Positions 34,243 to 44,764 of a stretch of DNA of 64,000 bases are shown piece by piece. The DNA comes from Escherichia phage HildyBeyeler. The stretch is from the sequence record MZ501074. The stretch is one strand, 5' to 3'. The notes beneath the pieces are model-generated. The model ran no database searches, had not been told where the DNA came from, and saw only the letters and a program-made list of their open reading frames with translations. Position 1 is the first letter of the stretch, and each line of letters starts with the position of its first letter. The translations under genes were made by a program, and so were the position numbers.

Positions 34243-35064
34243 ATGGGTAAATTACAAAAACAAATACTACCATATATAGATTATATCCGAGAAATTATAG
34301 AGTATAATCCCTATACTGGTAAATTATTCTATAAGCCTAATAAATATAAGAATAAAACTTGGCATACTTTATATGCTGGGAGAGAAATATGTAGTAAGAA
34401 CTCTGATGGGTACATCAGAGTTAGTTTGCTCTTAGATAATAAACCCACAATTATTTATGGACACCGAATAGCGTGGCTCCTTCACTATGGGGAGGAACCA
34501 CCTGCTATGATTGATCATATAAATACTATACCGTGGGATAATAGAATTATTAACCTAAGAGAGACAAATTTTAAGTTAAACAGACTTAATACTAACAAAA
34601 CGGTAGGTGTAGAGCTGCTGCCAGAAGGATTTGTGTACAGCATTACATTAGGTGAAAAGTTTTTTGTATCCCCCGGCTTCCCCACTTTCGAACAAGCTAA
34701 AGTGGAAAGAGAAAAACTAGTAAATGGTTTATGTAATGCAGAAATTGGGAAGCAGACCAATATTCTAATAGACGATGTTAGAGATTTACCTGAAATGTCC
34801 ATTATTTGTCGTACAGTTATAGGTGCGCTGGAACTATCAGATGTGTTTAGTTTCACAGGATCCTATTTATTTATGGACTCAGATTTAGGAGATTCAGAGG
34901 TACAAGGAAAAGATTTATTAGATCATATACTATTATTAGGTCAAAGACCCCTAAAAGTGATTCTAGTAACATCTAATCCTGTTGACGCAGAGTACATGAG
35001 AGGTACTCTTACGTCTTATGGATACCGAGAAAATCCCAATAGATTAGAATATGATCTATTTTAA
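34243..35064 (+). CDS. HNH homing endonuclease (273 aa)
   Basis: HNH motif IDHINTIPWDNRIINLRETN; own promoter. Confidence 0.8.
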   Translation: MGKLQKQILPYIDYIREIIEYNPYTGKLFYKPNKYKNKTWHTLYAGREICSKNSDGYIRVSLLLDNKPTIIYGHRIAWLLHYGEEPPAMIDHINTIPWDNRIINLRETNFKLNRLNTNKTVGVELLPEGFVYSITLGEKFFVSPGFPTFEQAKVEREKLVNGLCNAEIGKQTNILIDDVRDLPEMSIICRTVIGALELSDVFSFTGSYLFMDSDLGDSEVQGKDLLDHILLLGQRPLKVILVTSNPVDAEYMRGTLTSYGYRENPNRLEYDLF

Positions 35065-37150: not shown

Positions 37151-38098
37151 ATGTTTAATACTAAAAATATGAAAGAACTGACTTCTGAGCAAAAAGTAAT
37201 TCGCACTATTAAACGTTGGGGTATTGGTTCTGTAGTTGGTTTAGCAGGTTTAATCCTAGCTTTTAATTCATATACTATTGTTTCTGATGGTACAGTTAAA
37301 ACCCAAACATTTCTGGGTAAAGTAGATCCTAACCCAGTATTACCTGGTTTCCATCTTGTAAACCCATTTGCATCTTTCGATACTTTTAGTACAAAAGATA
37401 TTGCTGTAAAATTAGATAAACTTCAGGTTCCTAGCCAGGATAAGTTTAAATCCACTGTTGACCTGACTGTTATGTTGCAGTTTGATGGTTCTAAGGCACC
37501 GATCAACCGTATTAATGCAGGTACTCAGGATCAGGCGTTAGACAAATATGTTACTGAAAAATTACTGTCTACCATCCGTGAGTTTGGTAAGTCTGTACCT
37601 AAAGCACAAGATTTGTTTGATGCTAAAATTCAAGCACAATTACAAACTGCAATTCAACAGGAAGTTGAAGAGTATGCACGCCCTTATGGTTACACAGTTA
37701 AGCAAGTGTTCCTTCAGGATATTACATTGCCACCGGTAATTATGGAACAGGTACAGAATACCAAAGTTCGTGAAGAACAAGTTAATGCTGCGAAAGCTGA
37801 ATTGGCTCGTGTTGAACAAGAAGCACAGCAGAAGGTTAAACAAGCAGAAGCAGATCGTGAAGCTCGTAACAACCAAGCTATTGCAAACGAACGTGATGCA
37901 GATGCTAAACTGTATGCAGCTAAGAAAGAAGCCGAAGCTAACGCCGCTCTGCAACGTACTATTACTCCTGAGATGATTCGCTGGAAACAACTAGAAGTTG
38001 AAATGACTCGTGCTCAGAAGTATCAAGGTGGTGTGCCTCAGACTGTAGTAGGTACTGGTTACGATGGTCAAATGATCATGGATATGCGTAACAAGTAA
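37151..38098 (+). CDS. SPFH/band-7 (stomatin/prohibitin-like) membrane protein (315 aa)
   Basis: N-terminal TM helix, SPFH core, long Ala/Glu-rich coiled coil; terminator follows. Confidence 0.65.
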   Translation: MFNTKNMKELTSEQKVIRTIKRWGIGSVVGLAGLILAFNSYTIVSDGTVKTQTFLGKVDPNPVLPGFHLVNPFASFDTFSTKDIAVKLDKLQVPSQDKFKSTVDLTVMLQFDGSKAPINRINAGTQDQALDKYVTEKLLSTIREFGKSVPKAQDLFDAKIQAQLQTAIQQEVEEYARPYGYTVKQVFLQDITLPPVIMEQVQNTKVREEQVNAAKAELARVEQEAQQKVKQAEADREARNNQAIANERDADAKLYAAKKEAEANAALQRTITPEMIRWKQLEVEMTRAQKYQGGVPQTVVGTGYDGQMIMDMRNK

Positions 38099-38385: not shown

Positions 38386-38904
38386 ATGACTGTTGATGAA
38401 CTAACAGAACATCTCTTATCTAGAGGGTTTGATACAGATAAGTATCATTGCTGGTTAAGTCCGGAAGGATGGCTAACAGTCCCGTTGTATGACTTCTCTG
38501 GGATGTTGAGAGGCTATCAGACTTATAATCCTTCTGCTCCAAAAGGTCATGGTAAGTGCCCCTTTGAAGCTAAATATTTTACTTATTCAACTACACAGTG
38601 TGTATGGGGATTAGAAACTCTCAATGGAGATGAAAAAGTAGTATTGATTGCTGAATCTGTATTTAAGGCAGTTGCGTTACATAACGCTGGTTATCCAGCC
38701 CTGGCAATGTTGGGTTCTTCCCCCGGAAAAGCATTGTTAAAGCAATTGAAATTATTACCTTTTAAATTGGTAGCTGTCGGAGATAATGATCCTGCGGGTG
38801 AAAAATTTGCTAGAAAATTAAACGGCTTTGTTTCTCCTGTAGATGTAGATGAGATGTCTACCGAAAACTTGAAAAATTTTCTTGCTATGAAGCTAAATTT
38901 CTAA
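38386..38904 (+). CDS. hypothetical protein, possible Toprim-like domain (172 aa)
   Basis: VVLIAESVFKAVAL...LVAVGDNDPAGEKFARKL; 3' end overlaps promoter 38882-38910. Confidence 0.4.
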   Translation: MTVDELTEHLLSRGFDTDKYHCWLSPEGWLTVPLYDFSGMLRGYQTYNPSAPKGHGKCPFEAKYFTYSTTQCVWGLETLNGDEKVVLIAESVFKAVALHNAGYPALAMLGSSPGKALLKQLKLLPFKLVAVGDNDPAGEKFARKLNGFVSPVDVDEMSTENLKNFLAMKLNF

Positions 38905-42640: not shown

Positions 42641-42762
42641 CAAAATCTCAGTGCAGAACACGGAGCTAGCAATTCGGAAATGCTGACTCATGATAAGCTG
42701 CCTATGTACTTGCGAAGCGGTCGTGTCCAAGACTCGGACTCTTGCACTGAAAACAATCAAAC

Positions 42763-42883
42763 ATTCTAGCGTGGTTGATGGGGAAACCAGCTTGGCTAGG
42801 GCAGAAGCTCGTTCGATTCGAGTGAAAGAATGGTTCTCGTAAGTCCGCACAAGTGATAACAGGTTCGAGTCCTGTCTAGAATG
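42763..42883 (+). ncRNA. candidate structured RNA (121 nt) with tRNA-like termini
   Basis: ATTCTAG at 42763-69 pairs perfectly with CTAGAAT at 42876-82; T-arm-like ACAGG-TTCGAGT-CCTGT before the 3' strand; internal GCTCG-TTCGATT-CGAGT hairpin. Confidence 0.35.
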
Positions 42884-42897
42884 ACACTATAAAGTTT

Positions 42898-43012
42898 ACT
42901 TATTATGTAGGTTCCGATAGACCGGCGGGTCTATTCTGGCATTTAAGAGAGGTCTCGCAAACTTCTTTGTCAGCCGTGGGGTTGATAGCCCCCAGGTGGC
43001 CTACACAATAAG
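42898..43012 (+). repeat. 14-bp inverted repeat (13 of 14 pairs) enclosing about 87 nt of hairpin-rich sequence
   Basis: ACTTATTATGTAGG at 42898-911 pairs with CCTACACAATAAGT at 42999-43012; internal hairpins ATAGACC/GGTCTAT and GGGG/CCCC. Confidence 0.65.
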
Positions 43013-43032: not shown

Positions 43033-43061
43033 TTGCTATTTAGCTTAATTCTCTGTATAAT
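43033..43061 (+). promoter_or_regulatory. sigma70 promoter (TTGCTA, 17 bp, TATAAT)
   Basis: Precedes HNH gene 43094-43669. Confidence 0.65.
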
Positions 43062-43093: not shown

Positions 43094-43669
43094 ATGGAAG
43101 GATTTAAACCAATACCCGAGTATCCAGAATACTTAGTATCTGAGAAGGGAGAAATATACTCCACTATCAGTAATAAATATTTAAAACCTACCATAAACGG
43201 GAGCGGCTATTACCACTTTGCAGTACGTGAAGATACTAATGAGTATAGATGGCTTCTGCTGCACAGAGTTATATGCAGGGTTTATGGTAATCTCCCCTCT
43301 TTAGATAGTGAAATGGAAGTAGATCATAATGATTGTAATAGGCTTAATATACTCCCTAGTAATTTAGTTGCCAGAGAGAAGAAAGATCATTACGATAAAA
43401 CTACACTGGAGAGAGGAAAAACTATAGGGGGCACTAGATGTATAGTCTGTAATAAGAGGATACACTCTGGTCGAGAATACTGCATAAATTGCAGTCCAGT
43501 TAAACAGACTAAATCCCCAGAGATTACCGCAGAACAGATAGAATATTGGGTATCAAAGTATTCCTGGACTAGAGCTGCAAAAGAGTTAAATTTATCTGAT
43601 AATGGTCTACGAAAACGGTATACTAAATTAACAGGTAAATCCCCAAAAGAAATTAAAAAATCAGGGTAA
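43094..43669 (+). CDS. HNH homing endonuclease (191 aa)
   Basis: HNH motif EVDHNDCNRLNILPSNL and zinc-ribbon CIVCNKRIHSGREYCINC; last 8 nt overlap the 5' end of tRNA-Pro. Confidence 0.75.
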   Translation: MEGFKPIPEYPEYLVSEKGEIYSTISNKYLKPTINGSGYYHFAVREDTNEYRWLLLHRVICRVYGNLPSLDSEMEVDHNDCNRLNILPSNLVAREKKDHYDKTTLERGKTIGGTRCIVCNKRIHSGREYCINCSPVKQTKSPEITAEQIEYWVSKYSWTRAAKELNLSDNGLRKRYTKLTGKSPKEIKKSG

Positions 43670-43739: not shown

Positions 43740-43745
43740 AACAAT

Positions 43746-43821
43746 TGCGGGTGGGAGGCATAGAGTTCTTCTTAGTCTCATAAGCTAAGTAAGTCCAGGG
43801 CAGTACTGGAACCCGCTACCA
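43746..43821 (+). tRNA. tRNA with anticodon CAU (Met/fMet/Ile2-type), non-canonical T-loop, CCA encoded
   Basis: Anticodon arm TTAGT-CUCAUAA-GCTAA, T-arm TCCAG-GGCAGTA-CTGGA, acceptor 6 bp with a U1-U72 mismatch. Confidence 0.45.
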
Positions 43822-43839
43822 ATTTCAAGAAAAACGCAG

Positions 43840-43868
43840 TTGCTTAATGCTTAATTTCTTGTTATAAT
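43840..43868 (+). promoter_or_regulatory. sigma70 promoter (TTGCTT, 17 bp, TATAAT)
   Basis: Hexamers plus ATTTATATAAATTGATG box; followed by about 330 nt with no ORF. Confidence 0.65.
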
Positions 43869-44204
43869 ATTTATATAAATTGATGCGAAAATAGCTGCCT
43901 AGATACCAGGTGTATGACGTCTACACTAGCAGAGCTACCGAAAAAGAGATCCCCAGGATAAACGTCGTAGCAAAATTAGTCTGGTATCCATCAATTTAGT
44001 TCACTAAGGTATTAGCTCGACCTAGGACTGGCTGCCAAAAAGCACGATCCCTACGATTCGGGAGAAGTTCTAGATTAGTCCACTAGATTCAGCGGCAACT
44101 GAATAGTGTATTGGGTTTGCGAGATGACGCAGTTCCTTCCGCTCGAAGCGAAGGTGCTGTAGTTACGCCGAGCTAATAGCCTTAGTAAACTAGAAGGAAT
44201 ATCT

Positions 44205-44468
44205 ATGTTTGATCTGAAAGATATGGCTAAAAAGTTAATGTCGCAACGCTATCAACAAAGAACACTCCATAAACGAGTTTCCGATATGAAAAAACGTTGC
44301 AATAATGCTAAATATTATAATAGTCTTAATAAACTATCTGATGCAGATCTTGTTAAAACTGAAGCAATATATAATCACTTAGCAGTAGAGTATGATATAG
44401 TGAATAAAGATATTGCTAGGCTAGAAGCTCAGATTGTAGCAACTGTACTTGACATGTACAGGGAATAA
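44205..44468 (+). CDS. hypothetical protein (87 aa)
   Basis: GAAGGA RBS. Confidence 0.5.
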   Translation: MFDLKDMAKKLMSQRYQQRTLHKRVSDMKKRCNNAKYYNSLNKLSDADLVKTEAIYNHLAVEYDIVNKDIARLEAQIVATVLDMYRE

Positions 44469-44479
44469 ATAAAGAATTT

Positions 44480-44558
44480 GGGGGATGGGTCTGCTGGGAG
44501 TGGACACCTCGCTTGCACCGAGGACATCAGAACGATTCGAATTCGTTATCCTCCACCA
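44480..44558 (+). tRNA. tRNA-Ala (anticodon UGC), CCA encoded
   Basis: Acceptor GGGGGAT/ATCCTCC with G3-U70, anticodon arm CCTCG-CUUGCAC-CGAGG, T-loop TTCGAAT. Confidence 0.7.
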
Positions 44559-44563
44559 AATAC

Positions 44564-44640
44564 GCGTGATTGATGGAATTGGCATACATACCGTCCTTAG
44601 AAGTCGGGTTTTGAGGGTTCGAATCCCTTGTCACGCACCA
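44564..44640 (+). tRNA. tRNA with anticodon UAG (Leu-type) but short variable arm, CCA encoded
   Basis: Acceptor GCGTGAT/GTCACGC, anticodon loop CU-UAG-AA, T-arm GAGGG-TTCGAAT-CCCTT, A73. Confidence 0.55.
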
Positions 44641-44764
44641 AATTTGATGGTCAGAGTAAATTAAACCTACTATCTCGGTTGAGCTGTTTTAATGGGTTCG
44701 AATCCCAGCGAGGCGTAACTGCCTGGTGTGATAGAGGCATCATTCCACTAATATTGGAAAACTA

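What the first reader, a model, noticed from the sequence alone, without database searches (positions are those of the whole stretch)
43877..44204. A 330-nt structured leader between promoter 43840-43868 and the next ORF
The transcript from this promoter runs about 330 nt before the first credible start codon at 44205. The leader contains long-range complementarity (ATACCAG near 43903 with CTGGTAT near 43981) and a near-palindrome CGCTCGAAGCG near 44140. It may be a cis-regulatory leader or an independent small RNA.
Basis: seen in the sequence. Interest (0 to 1): 0.5.

Follow-up and report, generated by a model that had tools for sequence, protein, structure and literature searches.

The report
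Phage T5 stable RNA gene rna2H
The "330-nt leader" is a copy of a structured non-coding RNA gene (rna2H) already annotated in phage T5, here with an extra 5' domain, and in most relatives it sits in front of a tRNA gene, so it is not a control region for the next protein gene.

Summary
The window comes from a T5-like phage, 99.9% identical to Salmonella phage Tennessee. In detail: the promoter, the ATACCAG/CTGGTAT pairing and the CGCTCGAAGCG hairpin are all present, and each pairing has compensatory substitutions in relatives.

The "leader" reading does not hold. The GenBank records of T5 and phage 5 annotate the same DNA as promoter P13b plus misc_RNA rna2H, "stable RNA with unknown functions", 172 nt. 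Of 55 distinct versions collected, 46 are followed within 16 nt by a tRNA gene and only 6 by the 87-aa ORF. No terminator, conserved small ORF or Rfam match was found.

Anatomy:
- An optional 5' domain, 43877-43997. T5 has an 8-bp GNRA hairpin in its place.
- A 194-nt core, 43998-44191, closed by a 22-bp helix P1.
- Two hairpins, P2 and P5, swapped between lineages with many compensatory changes.
- An almost invariant centre whose fold is unresolved.

T5's annotated ends map onto P1 with a 2-bp 3' stagger, which suggests excision by RNase III. This is inferred, not shown. The function is unknown, and the element lies in the dispensable tRNA-rich anti-defence region. Verdict: real, already annotated, never characterised.

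The parts
43840..43868 (+). Early sigma-70 promoter P13b: -35 TTGCTT (43840-43845), 17-nt spacer, extended -10 TGnTATAAT (-10 at 43863-43868). The transcription start is inferred near 43875.
   Evidence: Sequence read. Nearly invariant in all relatives. Annotated as promoter P13b in T5 and phage 5 and as P13b-like in S114.
43877..43997 (+). Optional 5' domain. Outer helix AAAUUGAUG (43877-43885) with CAUCAAUUU (43989-43997). Inner helix GAUACCAG (43902-43909) with CUGGUAUC (43981-43988). Branched interior. T5 and most relatives have instead an 8-bp hairpin, GAUGAGGA-GAAA-UCCUCAUC.
   Evidence: Fold z = -2.74. C43906-G43984 covaries with U-A, with a U.G intermediate in L051. Present in at least 72 of 425 matching phage records. 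The short hairpin in other phages has its own compensatory changes (A-U/G-C, and a loop inversion in L034). Not annotated in any record seen.
43998..44019 (+). P1, 5' strand of the 22-position closing helix.
   Evidence: 21 pairs, 99.7% of cells paired across 50 distinct sequences. One G-C to A-U compensatory pair (cols 18/206) and three pairs with a G.U variant.
44010..44181 (+). Equivalent of the 172-nt mature RNA2H as annotated in T5 and phage 5: 5' UAUUAGCUCG ... CGAGCUAAUA-GCC 3'.
   Evidence: T5 feature L004:2520-2691 and phage 5 feature L003:2642-2813, mapped through the alignment. The two ends lie on opposite strands of P1 with a 2-bp 3' stagger. This mapping is my inference from the sequence.
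44020..44046 (+). Conserved joining strand ACCUAGGACUGGCUGCCAAAAAGCAC. It holds GGACU (44025-44029) and UGCC (44033-44036), which are complementary to the P3 and P4 loops.
   Evidence: Almost invariant in 50 sequences. All proposed pairings are compatible with the few substitutions seen, but none shows a double compensatory change.
44048..44063 (+). P2, a variable hairpin: UCCC/GGGA with an 8-nt loop here. Other lineages carry 38-43-nt hairpins of three different sequence types.
   Evidence: Base pairs at cols 53/94 (C-G vs U-A) and 54/93 (C-G vs G-C) changed on both sides in 14 of 50 sequences. Every variant folds into a hairpin on its own.
44069..44103 (+). P3 hairpin (UCUAG 44069-44073 with CUAGA 44083-44087; loop AUUAGUCCA), followed directly by P4 hairpin (UUCAG 44088-44092 with CUGAA 44099-44103; loop CGGCAA, in which GGCAA is invariant).
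   Evidence: P3: two double compensatory pairs in phage bobsandoy. P4: 99.2% of cells paired; the top pair is lost in several phages while GGCAA never changes. RNAalifold prefers a rival pairing of the same bases, so the fold of this centre is unresolved.
44119..44168 (+). P5, a long irregular hairpin. Two main sequence types, A and B, occupy the same alignment columns.
   Evidence: 8 of its 16 pairs are changed on both sides (19-30 of 50 sequences at each); cols 152/200 show three pair types.
44169..44191 (+). P1, 3' strand, with bulged G44179 and the C44002.A44187 mismatch.
44205..44468 (+). 87-aa ORF with Shine-Dalgarno AAGGA at 44194-44198. It sits between the RNA and tRNA-Ala in a minority of relatives and is not part of the RNA element.
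   Evidence: No Pfam family above threshold.
44480..44640 (+). tRNA-Ala(UGC) and tRNA-Leu(UAG). In T5, phage 5 and most relatives tRNA-Ala follows the RNA directly, so these are probably part of the same P13b transcript.

Best explanation
This is the rna2H gene of T5-like phages, a structured non-coding RNA, and not a leader dedicated to the ORF at 44205.

Shown:
- It is homologous to the annotated T5 RNA2H.
- It keeps a fixed position directly behind early promoter P13b, whatever gene follows.
- It has a covariation-supported architecture: a 5' hairpin or 5' domain, a 22-bp closing helix P1, variable hairpins P2 and P5, and a nearly invariant centre holding P3 and P4.
- It is confined to T5-like phages.

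Inferred:
- Host RNA polymerase starts near 43875 and transcribes the 5' domain, the core, the 87-aa ORF and the tRNA-Ala/tRNA-Leu genes as one precursor.
- The core is cut out within P1, between 44009/44010 and 44181/44182, leaving a 10-bp terminal stem with a short 3' overhang. That geometry fits a staggered RNase III cut.
- The excised ~172-nt RNA accumulates and acts in trans through its invariant unpaired nucleotides. The P2 and P5 hairpins and the 5' domain are replaceable scaffolding.
- The target is unknown. Given the location in the dispensable tRNA-rich anti-defence region, a host factor or a defence factor is my best guess.
For: Identity:
- The window is 99.9% identical to phage Tennessee.
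- The leader matches 425 phage records, nearly all T5-like.
- T5 and phage 5 annotate promoter P13b plus misc_RNA rna2H, 'stable RNA with unknown functions'.

Independence from the ORF:
- 46 of 55 distinct versions are followed by a tRNA within 16 nt, 6 by the 87-aa ORF and 3 by other ORFs (annotations).

Structure:
- Core fold z = -4.91.
- On 50 distinct sequences, 97.6-98.0% of cells form pairs, against 31-45% when partners are slid by 1-3 columns.
- 11-13 pairs are changed on both sides, concentrated in P5 (8, including its base), P2 (2), P1 (1) and P3 (2).
- All combinations of long/short 5' domain, P2 type and P5 type occur, so the modules are exchangeable around a fixed core.

Processing:
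- The ends annotated in T5 (L004:2520 and 2691) fall on opposite strands of P1, offset by two base pairs.
- Stable-RNA excision by two RNase III cuts on opposite sides of a stem has a precedent in B. subtilis scRNA (PMC1935012, abstract seen).

Sequence-specific function:
- The joining strand and the P3/P4 loops are invariant or nearly so, while neighbouring helices have been replaced wholesale.

Context:
- The T5 tRNA-rich region is a deletion-prone region that encodes anti-defence functions (PMC12483538; bioRxiv 10.1101/2023.03.15.532788).
Against: - No expression or end-mapping data were available here. 'Stable RNA' and its ends rest on the depositors' annotation. I found no paper describing RNA2H: the term occurs nowhere in the library searched.
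- The annotated 3' end GCC could equally reflect a tRNA-like model (discriminator plus CC) chosen by the annotators. In that case the RNase III fit would be a coincidence.
- The lower half of P1 shows no compensatory change and has two single mismatches in individual phages.
- The fold of the conserved centre is ambiguous between two models.
- The proposed loop-strand pseudoknots could arise by chance (my estimate about 0.03 jointly), and one phage breaks a pair.
- Phage FFH1 has lost most of the RNA through a deletion, so it is not essential.
- A trans-acting role is pure inference.
Confidence: 0.7

Rival explanations
1. A purely cis-acting 5' stabiliser and processing scaffold. The structured RNA at the very 5' end of the P13b transcript protects the polycistronic tRNA/ORF precursor from 5'-end-dependent decay and provides a defined cleavage stem. 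The excised piece would be a by-product with no function of its own.
For: - The element is always the first thing transcribed from P13b, whatever follows.
- The transcript always begins with a stable hairpin, either the 8-bp GNRA hairpin or the 5' domain.
- P1 is conserved while peripheral hairpins are freely replaced.
- The RNA is dispensable in FFH1.
Against: - A generic stabiliser would not need about 70 nearly invariant nucleotides in the joining strands and loops while its helices are swapped.
- GGCAA in the P4 loop is kept even where the closing pair of P4 is lost.
- The depositors list the RNA as a stable species in its own right.
Confidence: 0.18
2. A tRNA-like RNA handled by the tRNA machinery. 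RNase P would cut at U44010, the 3' end would be trimmed to ...GCC and A added by the CCA-adding enzyme. It could then act as a decoy for tRNA-targeting host enzymes.
For: - The annotated ends give a 10-bp terminal stem followed by G-C-C, resembling discriminator plus CC.
- Other T5 stable RNAs in the same record end in ...GCCA...ACCA or similar after a terminal stem.
- The gene sits among tRNA genes, in a region known to supply tRNAs against tRNA-cleaving defences (PMC11464382, title and abstract).
Against: - ARAGORN makes no tRNA call and Rfam gives no tRNA match at E <= 10.
- There is no T-loop motif, and P5, which abuts the 3' strand, is a ~50-nt irregular hairpin.
- There is no significant similarity to T5 RNA2 or the other tRNA-like RNAs (z between -1.0 and 0.4).
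- The 'CC' is paired with G44008-G44009 in the precursor, and the leader and trailer form 12 further base pairs, which is unusual for an RNase P substrate (from general knowledge).
Confidence: 0.1
3. A riboswitch or attenuator leader controlling the 87-aa ORF at 44205.
For: In this phage the RNA does lie between the promoter and that ORF, and the 3' strand of P1 ends 2 nt before the Shine-Dalgarno region.
Against: - The ORF is absent from most relatives that keep the RNA.
- There is no terminator-like site on the + strand.
- The Shine-Dalgarno sequence is unpaired in the predicted fold.
- No Rfam cis-regulatory family matches.
Confidence: 0.02

Closest known systems
Phage T5 rna2H (misc_RNA 'RNA2H, stable RNA with unknown functions', GenBank AY543070 31808-31979; also AJ604531 4021-4192)
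   Same: Orthologous sequence: 97-98% identity over the core. Same promoter P13b upstream, same tRNA-region context and same strand.
   Different: - The window, like phage 5 and at least 72 other records, carries an extra ~110-nt elaboration of the 5' hairpin that T5 lacks. No record seen annotates it.
- The window also has an 87-aa ORF inserted between the RNA and tRNA-Ala.
Phage T4 stable RNAs 'species 1 and 2' (rnaC, rnaD) in the T4 tRNA gene cluster (recalled from memory, not checked here)
   Same: Small stable RNAs of unknown function, encoded among phage tRNA genes, co-transcribed with them and released by precursor processing.
   Different: No sequence or structural relationship was tested or is apparent. 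The T4 RNAs are described as tRNA-like substrates of the tRNA-processing enzymes, whereas RNA2H failed every tRNA test run here.
RNase III excision of stable RNAs from a stem formed by their flanks (rRNA operons; B. subtilis scRNA, PMC1935012)
   Same: The 5' and 3' flanks pair into a helix of about 22 bp. The annotated mature ends sit on opposite strands with a 2-bp 3' stagger.
   Different: Cleavage by RNase III has not been demonstrated for this RNA. I inferred the fit from annotated ends whose experimental basis I could not verify.
Large phage-associated ncRNAs found next to tRNA genes (ROOL, GOLLD; Rfam families)
   Same: Structured, function-unknown RNAs that tend to lie beside tRNA genes in phage genomes.
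   Different: No Rfam match at E <= 10. RNA2H is much smaller (172-315 nt) and is confined to T5-like phages.

Membership tests
T5 rna2H stable RNA | Sequence homology to the annotated T5/phage 5 RNA2H | tested here: met
   97.1% (T5) and 98.2% (phage 5) identity in blastn. Aligned base by base. A covariance model built from 50 homologs scores the window copy at 233 bits.
T5 rna2H stable RNA | Position directly downstream of promoter P13b in the tRNA gene region | tested here: met
   The promoter sequence is nearly identical to the feature annotated P13b.
T5 rna2H stable RNA | Accumulates as a discrete stable RNA in infected cells | not testable with these tools
   Only the depositors' annotation is available. 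'RNA2H' does not occur in the paper library.
Riboswitch / attenuator leader | An expression platform: an intrinsic terminator, or sequestration of the Shine-Dalgarno sequence | tested here: not met
   No terminator-like site on the + strand. The Shine-Dalgarno sequence (44194-44198) lies outside P1 and is unpaired in the predicted fold.
Riboswitch / attenuator leader | Constant association with the regulated gene | tested here: not met
   46 of 55 distinct versions precede a tRNA gene. Only 6 precede the 87-aa ORF.
Riboswitch / attenuator leader | Match to a curated cis-regulatory RNA family | tested here: not met
   No Rfam match in 43877-44204 at E <= 10.
tRNA / tRNA-like RNA | A cloverleaf recognised by tRNA detectors | tested here: not met
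   ARAGORN and the Rfam tRNA model call the neighbouring tRNAs but nothing in 43877-44204.
tRNA / tRNA-like RNA | A T-arm with the T-loop motif next to the acceptor 3' strand | tested here: not met
   The helix abutting the P1 3' strand is the ~50-nt hairpin P5. No GUUCGAAUC-type loop is present.
tRNA / tRNA-like RNA | Terminal helix followed by a 3' NCCA | tested here: inconclusive
   The annotated 3' end is ...A-GCC, followed by U in the genome. The A would have to be added after transcription.
RNase III processing stem | About two helical turns of duplex formed by the flanks of the mature RNA | tested here: met
   21 base pairs plus one mismatch and one bulge; 99.7% of cells paired in 50 sequences.
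RNase III processing stem | Mature ends staggered to leave a 2-nt 3' overhang | tested here: inconclusive
   The ends annotated in T5 map to 44010 and 44181, a 2-bp stagger if the bulged G44179 is set aside. The experimental basis of those ends is unknown.
RNase III processing stem | Cleavage depends on RNase III | not testable with these tools
   Needs an rnc mutant or an in-vitro assay.
6S RNA, ROOL, GOLLD, tmRNA and other curated structured RNAs | Match to the family covariance model | tested here: not met
   Rfam 15 gives no match at gathering thresholds or at E <= 10. ARAGORN calls no tmRNA.

The most novel reading that the evidence does not exclude
RNA2H is a compact, doubly pseudoknotted trans-acting RNA. 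The loops of P3 (AGUCC) and P4 (GGCA) dock on the invariant joining strand (GGACU...UGCC). T5-like phages would use it as an RNA-based counter-defence or host-takeover factor, for example a decoy or inhibitor for a host nuclease or RNA-binding defence protein. This would match the anti-defence role now emerging for the tRNA-rich region. The swappable P2 and P5 hairpins and the 5' domain would reflect diversification or neutral scaffold turnover.
Probability: 0.12. Interest if true: 0.7.

Novelty: already known. Interest (0 to 1): 0.35.

Why it matters
T5 is a classic model phage, and its tRNA-rich early region is now recognised as a store of counter-defence functions: tRNAs against PARIS and retron Ec78, the Rad protein, and a DRT9 trigger. 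This RNA has sat in the T5 GenBank record for two decades as "stable RNA with unknown functions". It has no Rfam family, and I found no paper on it.

The analysis here adds:
- a covariation-supported helix map
- a clear split between replaceable hairpins and an invariant core
- a previously unannotated 5' domain
- a testable processing model

If the RNA proves to act in trans, it would be a rare phage-encoded functional RNA that is neither a tRNA nor a regulator of its own operon. If it is only a processing scaffold, the finding is ordinary.

Tried and rejected
- Rfam at gathering thresholds and at E <= 10: nothing in the element.
- ARAGORN: no tRNA or tmRNA there.
- RNA2H as a homolog of T5 RNA2, as the name might suggest, or of RNA1, RNA3, RNAI, RNAIII or RNAIV: local alignment scores are no better than shuffles (z from -1.0 to 0.4).
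- The 5' domain as a diverged duplicate of the core: only a marginal local similarity (GCUACCGAAAAAGAGAUCCCCAGGAU vs GCUGCCAAAAAGCACGAUCCCUACGAU; z about 2.3, equalled by 5-11 of 200 shuffles). Left open.
- Paralogs in the window: covariance model R1 finds only the element itself, plus its reverse-strand echo.
- Distant homologs: none in 185,579 bacterial and archaeal species genomes for a degenerate 25-mer. None by R1 in 13 contigs from phages that are not T5-like but share the nearby SPFH gene. Metagenome and IMG/VR pattern scans returned only T5-like contigs.
- A small ORF: none of 30 aa or more. The 29-codon GTG ORF called by Phanotate in the Tennessee record is frame-shifted in phage 5 and absent from T5.
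- Literature: 'RNA2H' and 'RNA 2H' occur in no held paper. Glukhov et al. 2018, on T5 tRNA-region deletions, is not held.
- The fold of the conserved centre could not be settled. The RNAalifold model (CUAGGACU/AGUUCUAG plus CACUA/UAGUG) and the local-hairpin model (P3 plus short helices and pseudoknots) both fit at least 99% of cells. Only phage bobsandoy (two compensatory pairs for P3) and IrmaTschudi (one mismatch against the alifold helix) tell them apart.

Full report
**Origin of the window.** The segment is from a T5-like phage (Demerecviridae, Markadamsvirinae). Window 43740-44480 is 99.9% identical to Salmonella phage Tennessee, and 534 phage records match it. It lies in the tRNA-rich early region: ARAGORN finds 21 tRNA genes between 36.4 and 47.7 kb (Rfam).

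**Checking the observation.** The promoter is as described: TTGCTT (43840-43845), 17 nt, then TGnTATAAT with the -10 at 43863-43868. It is nearly invariant in relatives. T5 and phage 5 annotate it as promoter P13b, and S114 as P13b-like. The simple scan missed it because the -35 hexamer matches only 3 of 6 positions.
- ATACCAG (43903-43909) and CTGGTAT (43981-43987) form the middle of an 8-bp helix. Its pair C43906-G43984 is U-A in five of eight phages, and one more phage shows the U.G intermediate.
- CGCTCGAAGCG (44140-44150) is the tip of a long hairpin. CGC/GCG becomes CAC/GUG in bombadil, with single-step intermediates elsewhere.
- The region folds better than shuffles: z = -2.99 for the whole leader, -2.74 for the 5' domain and -4.91 for the core.
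- The first ORF with a ribosome-binding site does start at 44205.

**What it is.** A blastn search with the leader alone finds 425 phage records. Two carry an informative annotation. In T5 (AY543070) the homologous DNA is "promoter P13b" followed by misc_RNA "rna2H, RNA2H, stable RNA with unknown functions" (172 nt), followed directly by tRNA-Ala. In phage 5 (AJ604531) the layout is the same, with about 115 unannotated bases between promoter and RNA. The finding is therefore the rna2H gene plus an extra 5' domain.

The T5 record lists six other stable or tRNA-like RNAs in this region. Homologs of RNA2 and RNAIV can be seen in the window at about 42762-42886 and 42905-43007.

**Why it is not a leader for the ORF.** I collected 55 distinct versions of the element with their flanks, from GenBank phages, IMG/VR and metagenomes. 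Of these, 46 are followed within 16 nt by a tRNA gene, 6 by the 87-aa ORF and 3 by other ORFs.
- No terminator-like site lies on the + strand.
- The ORF's Shine-Dalgarno sequence lies outside the closing helix and is unpaired.
- Rfam has no match even at E <= 10.
- No ORF of 30 aa or more lies in the element. The 29-codon GTG ORF called in the Tennessee record is frame-shifted in phage 5 and absent from T5.

**Anatomy.** The alignment of 50 distinct cores (A3) and the pair counts give the following picture.
- *5' end.* The transcript begins with a hairpin. In T5 and most relatives this is GAUGAGGA-GAAA-UCCUCAUC, which has its own compensatory changes and a loop inversion in one metagenome contig. 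In the window and at least 72 other records its loop is expanded into a ~110-nt branched domain (43877-43997).
- *P1.* This pairs 43998-44019 with 44169-44191: 21 pairs, one mismatch and one bulge, with 99.7% of cells paired and one G-C to A-U compensatory change.
- *P2 (44048-44063).* Short here, but replaced elsewhere by 38-43-nt hairpins of three types. Two base pairs are changed on both sides in 14 of 50 sequences.
- *P5 (44119-44168).* It exists in two main sequence types that align column for column. Eight of its 16 pairs are changed on both sides.
- *The centre.* The joining strand 44020-44046, P3, P4 and 44104-44118 are almost invariant.
- *Overall.* 97.6-98.0% of cells pair, against 31-45% when partners are slid by 1-3 columns. 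No shuffle of 500 reaches the observed covariation score.
- *Modules.* All combinations of 5' type, P2 type and P5 type occur, so they recombine around the fixed core.

**The unresolved centre.** RNAalifold prefers CUAGGACU/AGUUCUAG plus an extension of P4. An alternative has a local hairpin P3 (UCUAG/CUAGA), short helices ACCU/GGGU and GCAC/GUGU, and two loop-to-strand pairings (GGACU with AGUCC, UGCC with GGCA).
- The alternative fits the data slightly better: 100% paired in four of its five extra helices.
- Two double compensatory pairs in phage bobsandoy support P3.
- One mismatch in IrmaTschudi counts against the alifold helix.
- That is too little variation to decide.
- By my estimate the pseudoknots have a joint chance probability of about 0.03, and one phage (ende) breaks one of their pairs.

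**Processing (inferred).** The ends annotated in T5 (L004:2520 and 2691) map to U44010 and C44181. These lie on opposite strands in the middle of P1, offset by two base pairs if the bulged G44179 is set aside. That is the geometry of a staggered RNase III cut in a two-turn duplex, as in rRNA precursors and B. subtilis scRNA (PMC1935012, abstract). The same ends can be read as a tRNA-like "discriminator plus CC". However, every tRNA test failed, there is no T-loop, and there is no similarity to T5's tRNA-like RNAs. I could not find the experimental basis of the annotated ends, and "RNA2H" appears in no held paper.

**Distribution.**
- The covariance model R1 finds one copy in the window.
- It finds one copy in each of the 24 T5-like contigs where it scored, including the deleted remnant in FFH1. 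It scored nothing in four further T5-like loci (L061, L064, L077, L080), so the 10-kb flank may not reach the RNA there, or they may lack it.
- It finds none in 13 contigs from phages that are not T5-like but share the nearby SPFH gene, nor in three distant contigs.
- A degenerate 25-mer has no hit in 185,579 bacterial and archaeal species genomes.
- Phage FFH1 has lost 126 nt of the RNA between GCTCGA repeats, so the RNA is dispensable.
- This fits reports that the T5 tRNA-rich region is deletion-prone (PMC12483538) and acts as an anti-defence island (bioRxiv 10.1101/2023.03.15.532788).

**Verdict.** The feature is real and structured, and covariation supports it. It is an ortholog of an RNA gene already annotated in T5, not a new kind of element and not a regulatory leader for the ORF at 44205.
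- *Still open:* its function, its true ends and the fold of its invariant centre.
- *Best mechanistic reading:* a stable RNA excised from the P13b tRNA-operon precursor through the P1 duplex, acting through its invariant core.
- *Main rival:* a purely cis-acting stabiliser and processing scaffold.
- *Novelty:* already known at the level of database annotation.
- *Interest:* modest, 0.35. It would rise if a trans-acting or counter-defence role were shown.

Noticed in passing
window 43747-43826: A degenerate tRNA-like sequence between tRNA-Pro and promoter P13b: acceptor-like GCGGGU/ACCCGC, a UCCAG/CUGGA arm with a 7-nt loop, and a 3' UACCA tail. ARAGORN and Rfam do not call it. Fold z is only -1.17. 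It occupies the position where T5 and phage 5 have tRNA-fMet, tRNA-Lys and tRNA-Val.
   Followed up: partly
window 42762-42886, 42905-43007 and 43033-43061: Homologs of T5 RNA2 ('tRNA-like stable RNA') and RNAIV ('stable RNA with unknown functions'), followed by a P13a-like promoter (TTGCTA, 17 nt, TATAAT). Nothing in the closest record, Tennessee, annotates them.
   Followed up: partly
window 43094-43669: An HNH homing-endonuclease ORF (NUMOD4 plus HNH_3), equivalent to phage 5 hegB / F-TflIII. Its 3' end overlaps the start of tRNA-Pro (43662). It is absent at this position in T5 and is not annotated there in the Tennessee record.
   Followed up: partly
window 38386-38904: A 172-aa ORF with a Toprim domain inside the tRNA region. 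It is probably a homolog of Rad, the retron anti-defence protein described for T5-like phage SP15 (189 aa, primase/helicase and TOPRIM/RNase domains).
   Followed up: no
window 34243-35064: A 273-aa ORF combining an HNH_3 endonuclease domain with a cREC_REC (cyclic-phosphate processing receiver) domain. This is an unusual pairing.
   Followed up: no
window 37151-38098: An SPFH/Band 7 protein. Homologs at 75-82% identity occur in phage contigs of about 90 kb and about 140-180 kb that are not T5-like, which suggests exchange between unrelated phage groups.
   Followed up: partly
L033 / L062 (Escherichia phage FFH1), at the window 44015-44140 equivalent: A natural 126-nt deletion between two GCTCGA repeats removes most of RNA2H. 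It shows both that the RNA is dispensable and that repeats drive deletions in this region.
   Followed up: yes
P5 apical loop in type-B relatives (e.g. L005:860-880), compared with window 44172-44177: The type-B P5 loop GGCUAAUG repeats the GCUAAU of the P1 3' strand, so it could compete for the P1 5' strand AUUAGC. Type A, as in the window, lacks this. Unexplained.
   Followed up: no
L014, L015, L018 and L019 (a second promoter copy), compared with window 43858-43900: A second promoter in T5-like genomes has the same -10 and initial transcribed sequence (CTTGTTATAATATTTATATAAATTAATGAGAGGGAAACCAAATG) but leads straight into an ORF. The short 5' hairpin of RNA2H (GAUGAGGAGAAAUCCUCAUC) therefore looks like a duplicated promoter plus Shine-Dalgarno region that was turned into a hairpin.
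   Followed up: partly
window 44641-44760: The stretch after tRNA-Leu contains a canonical T-arm (GGGTTCGAATCCC), but neither ARAGORN nor Rfam calls a tRNA. It may be a tRNA remnant or another tRNA-like RNA.
   Followed up: no
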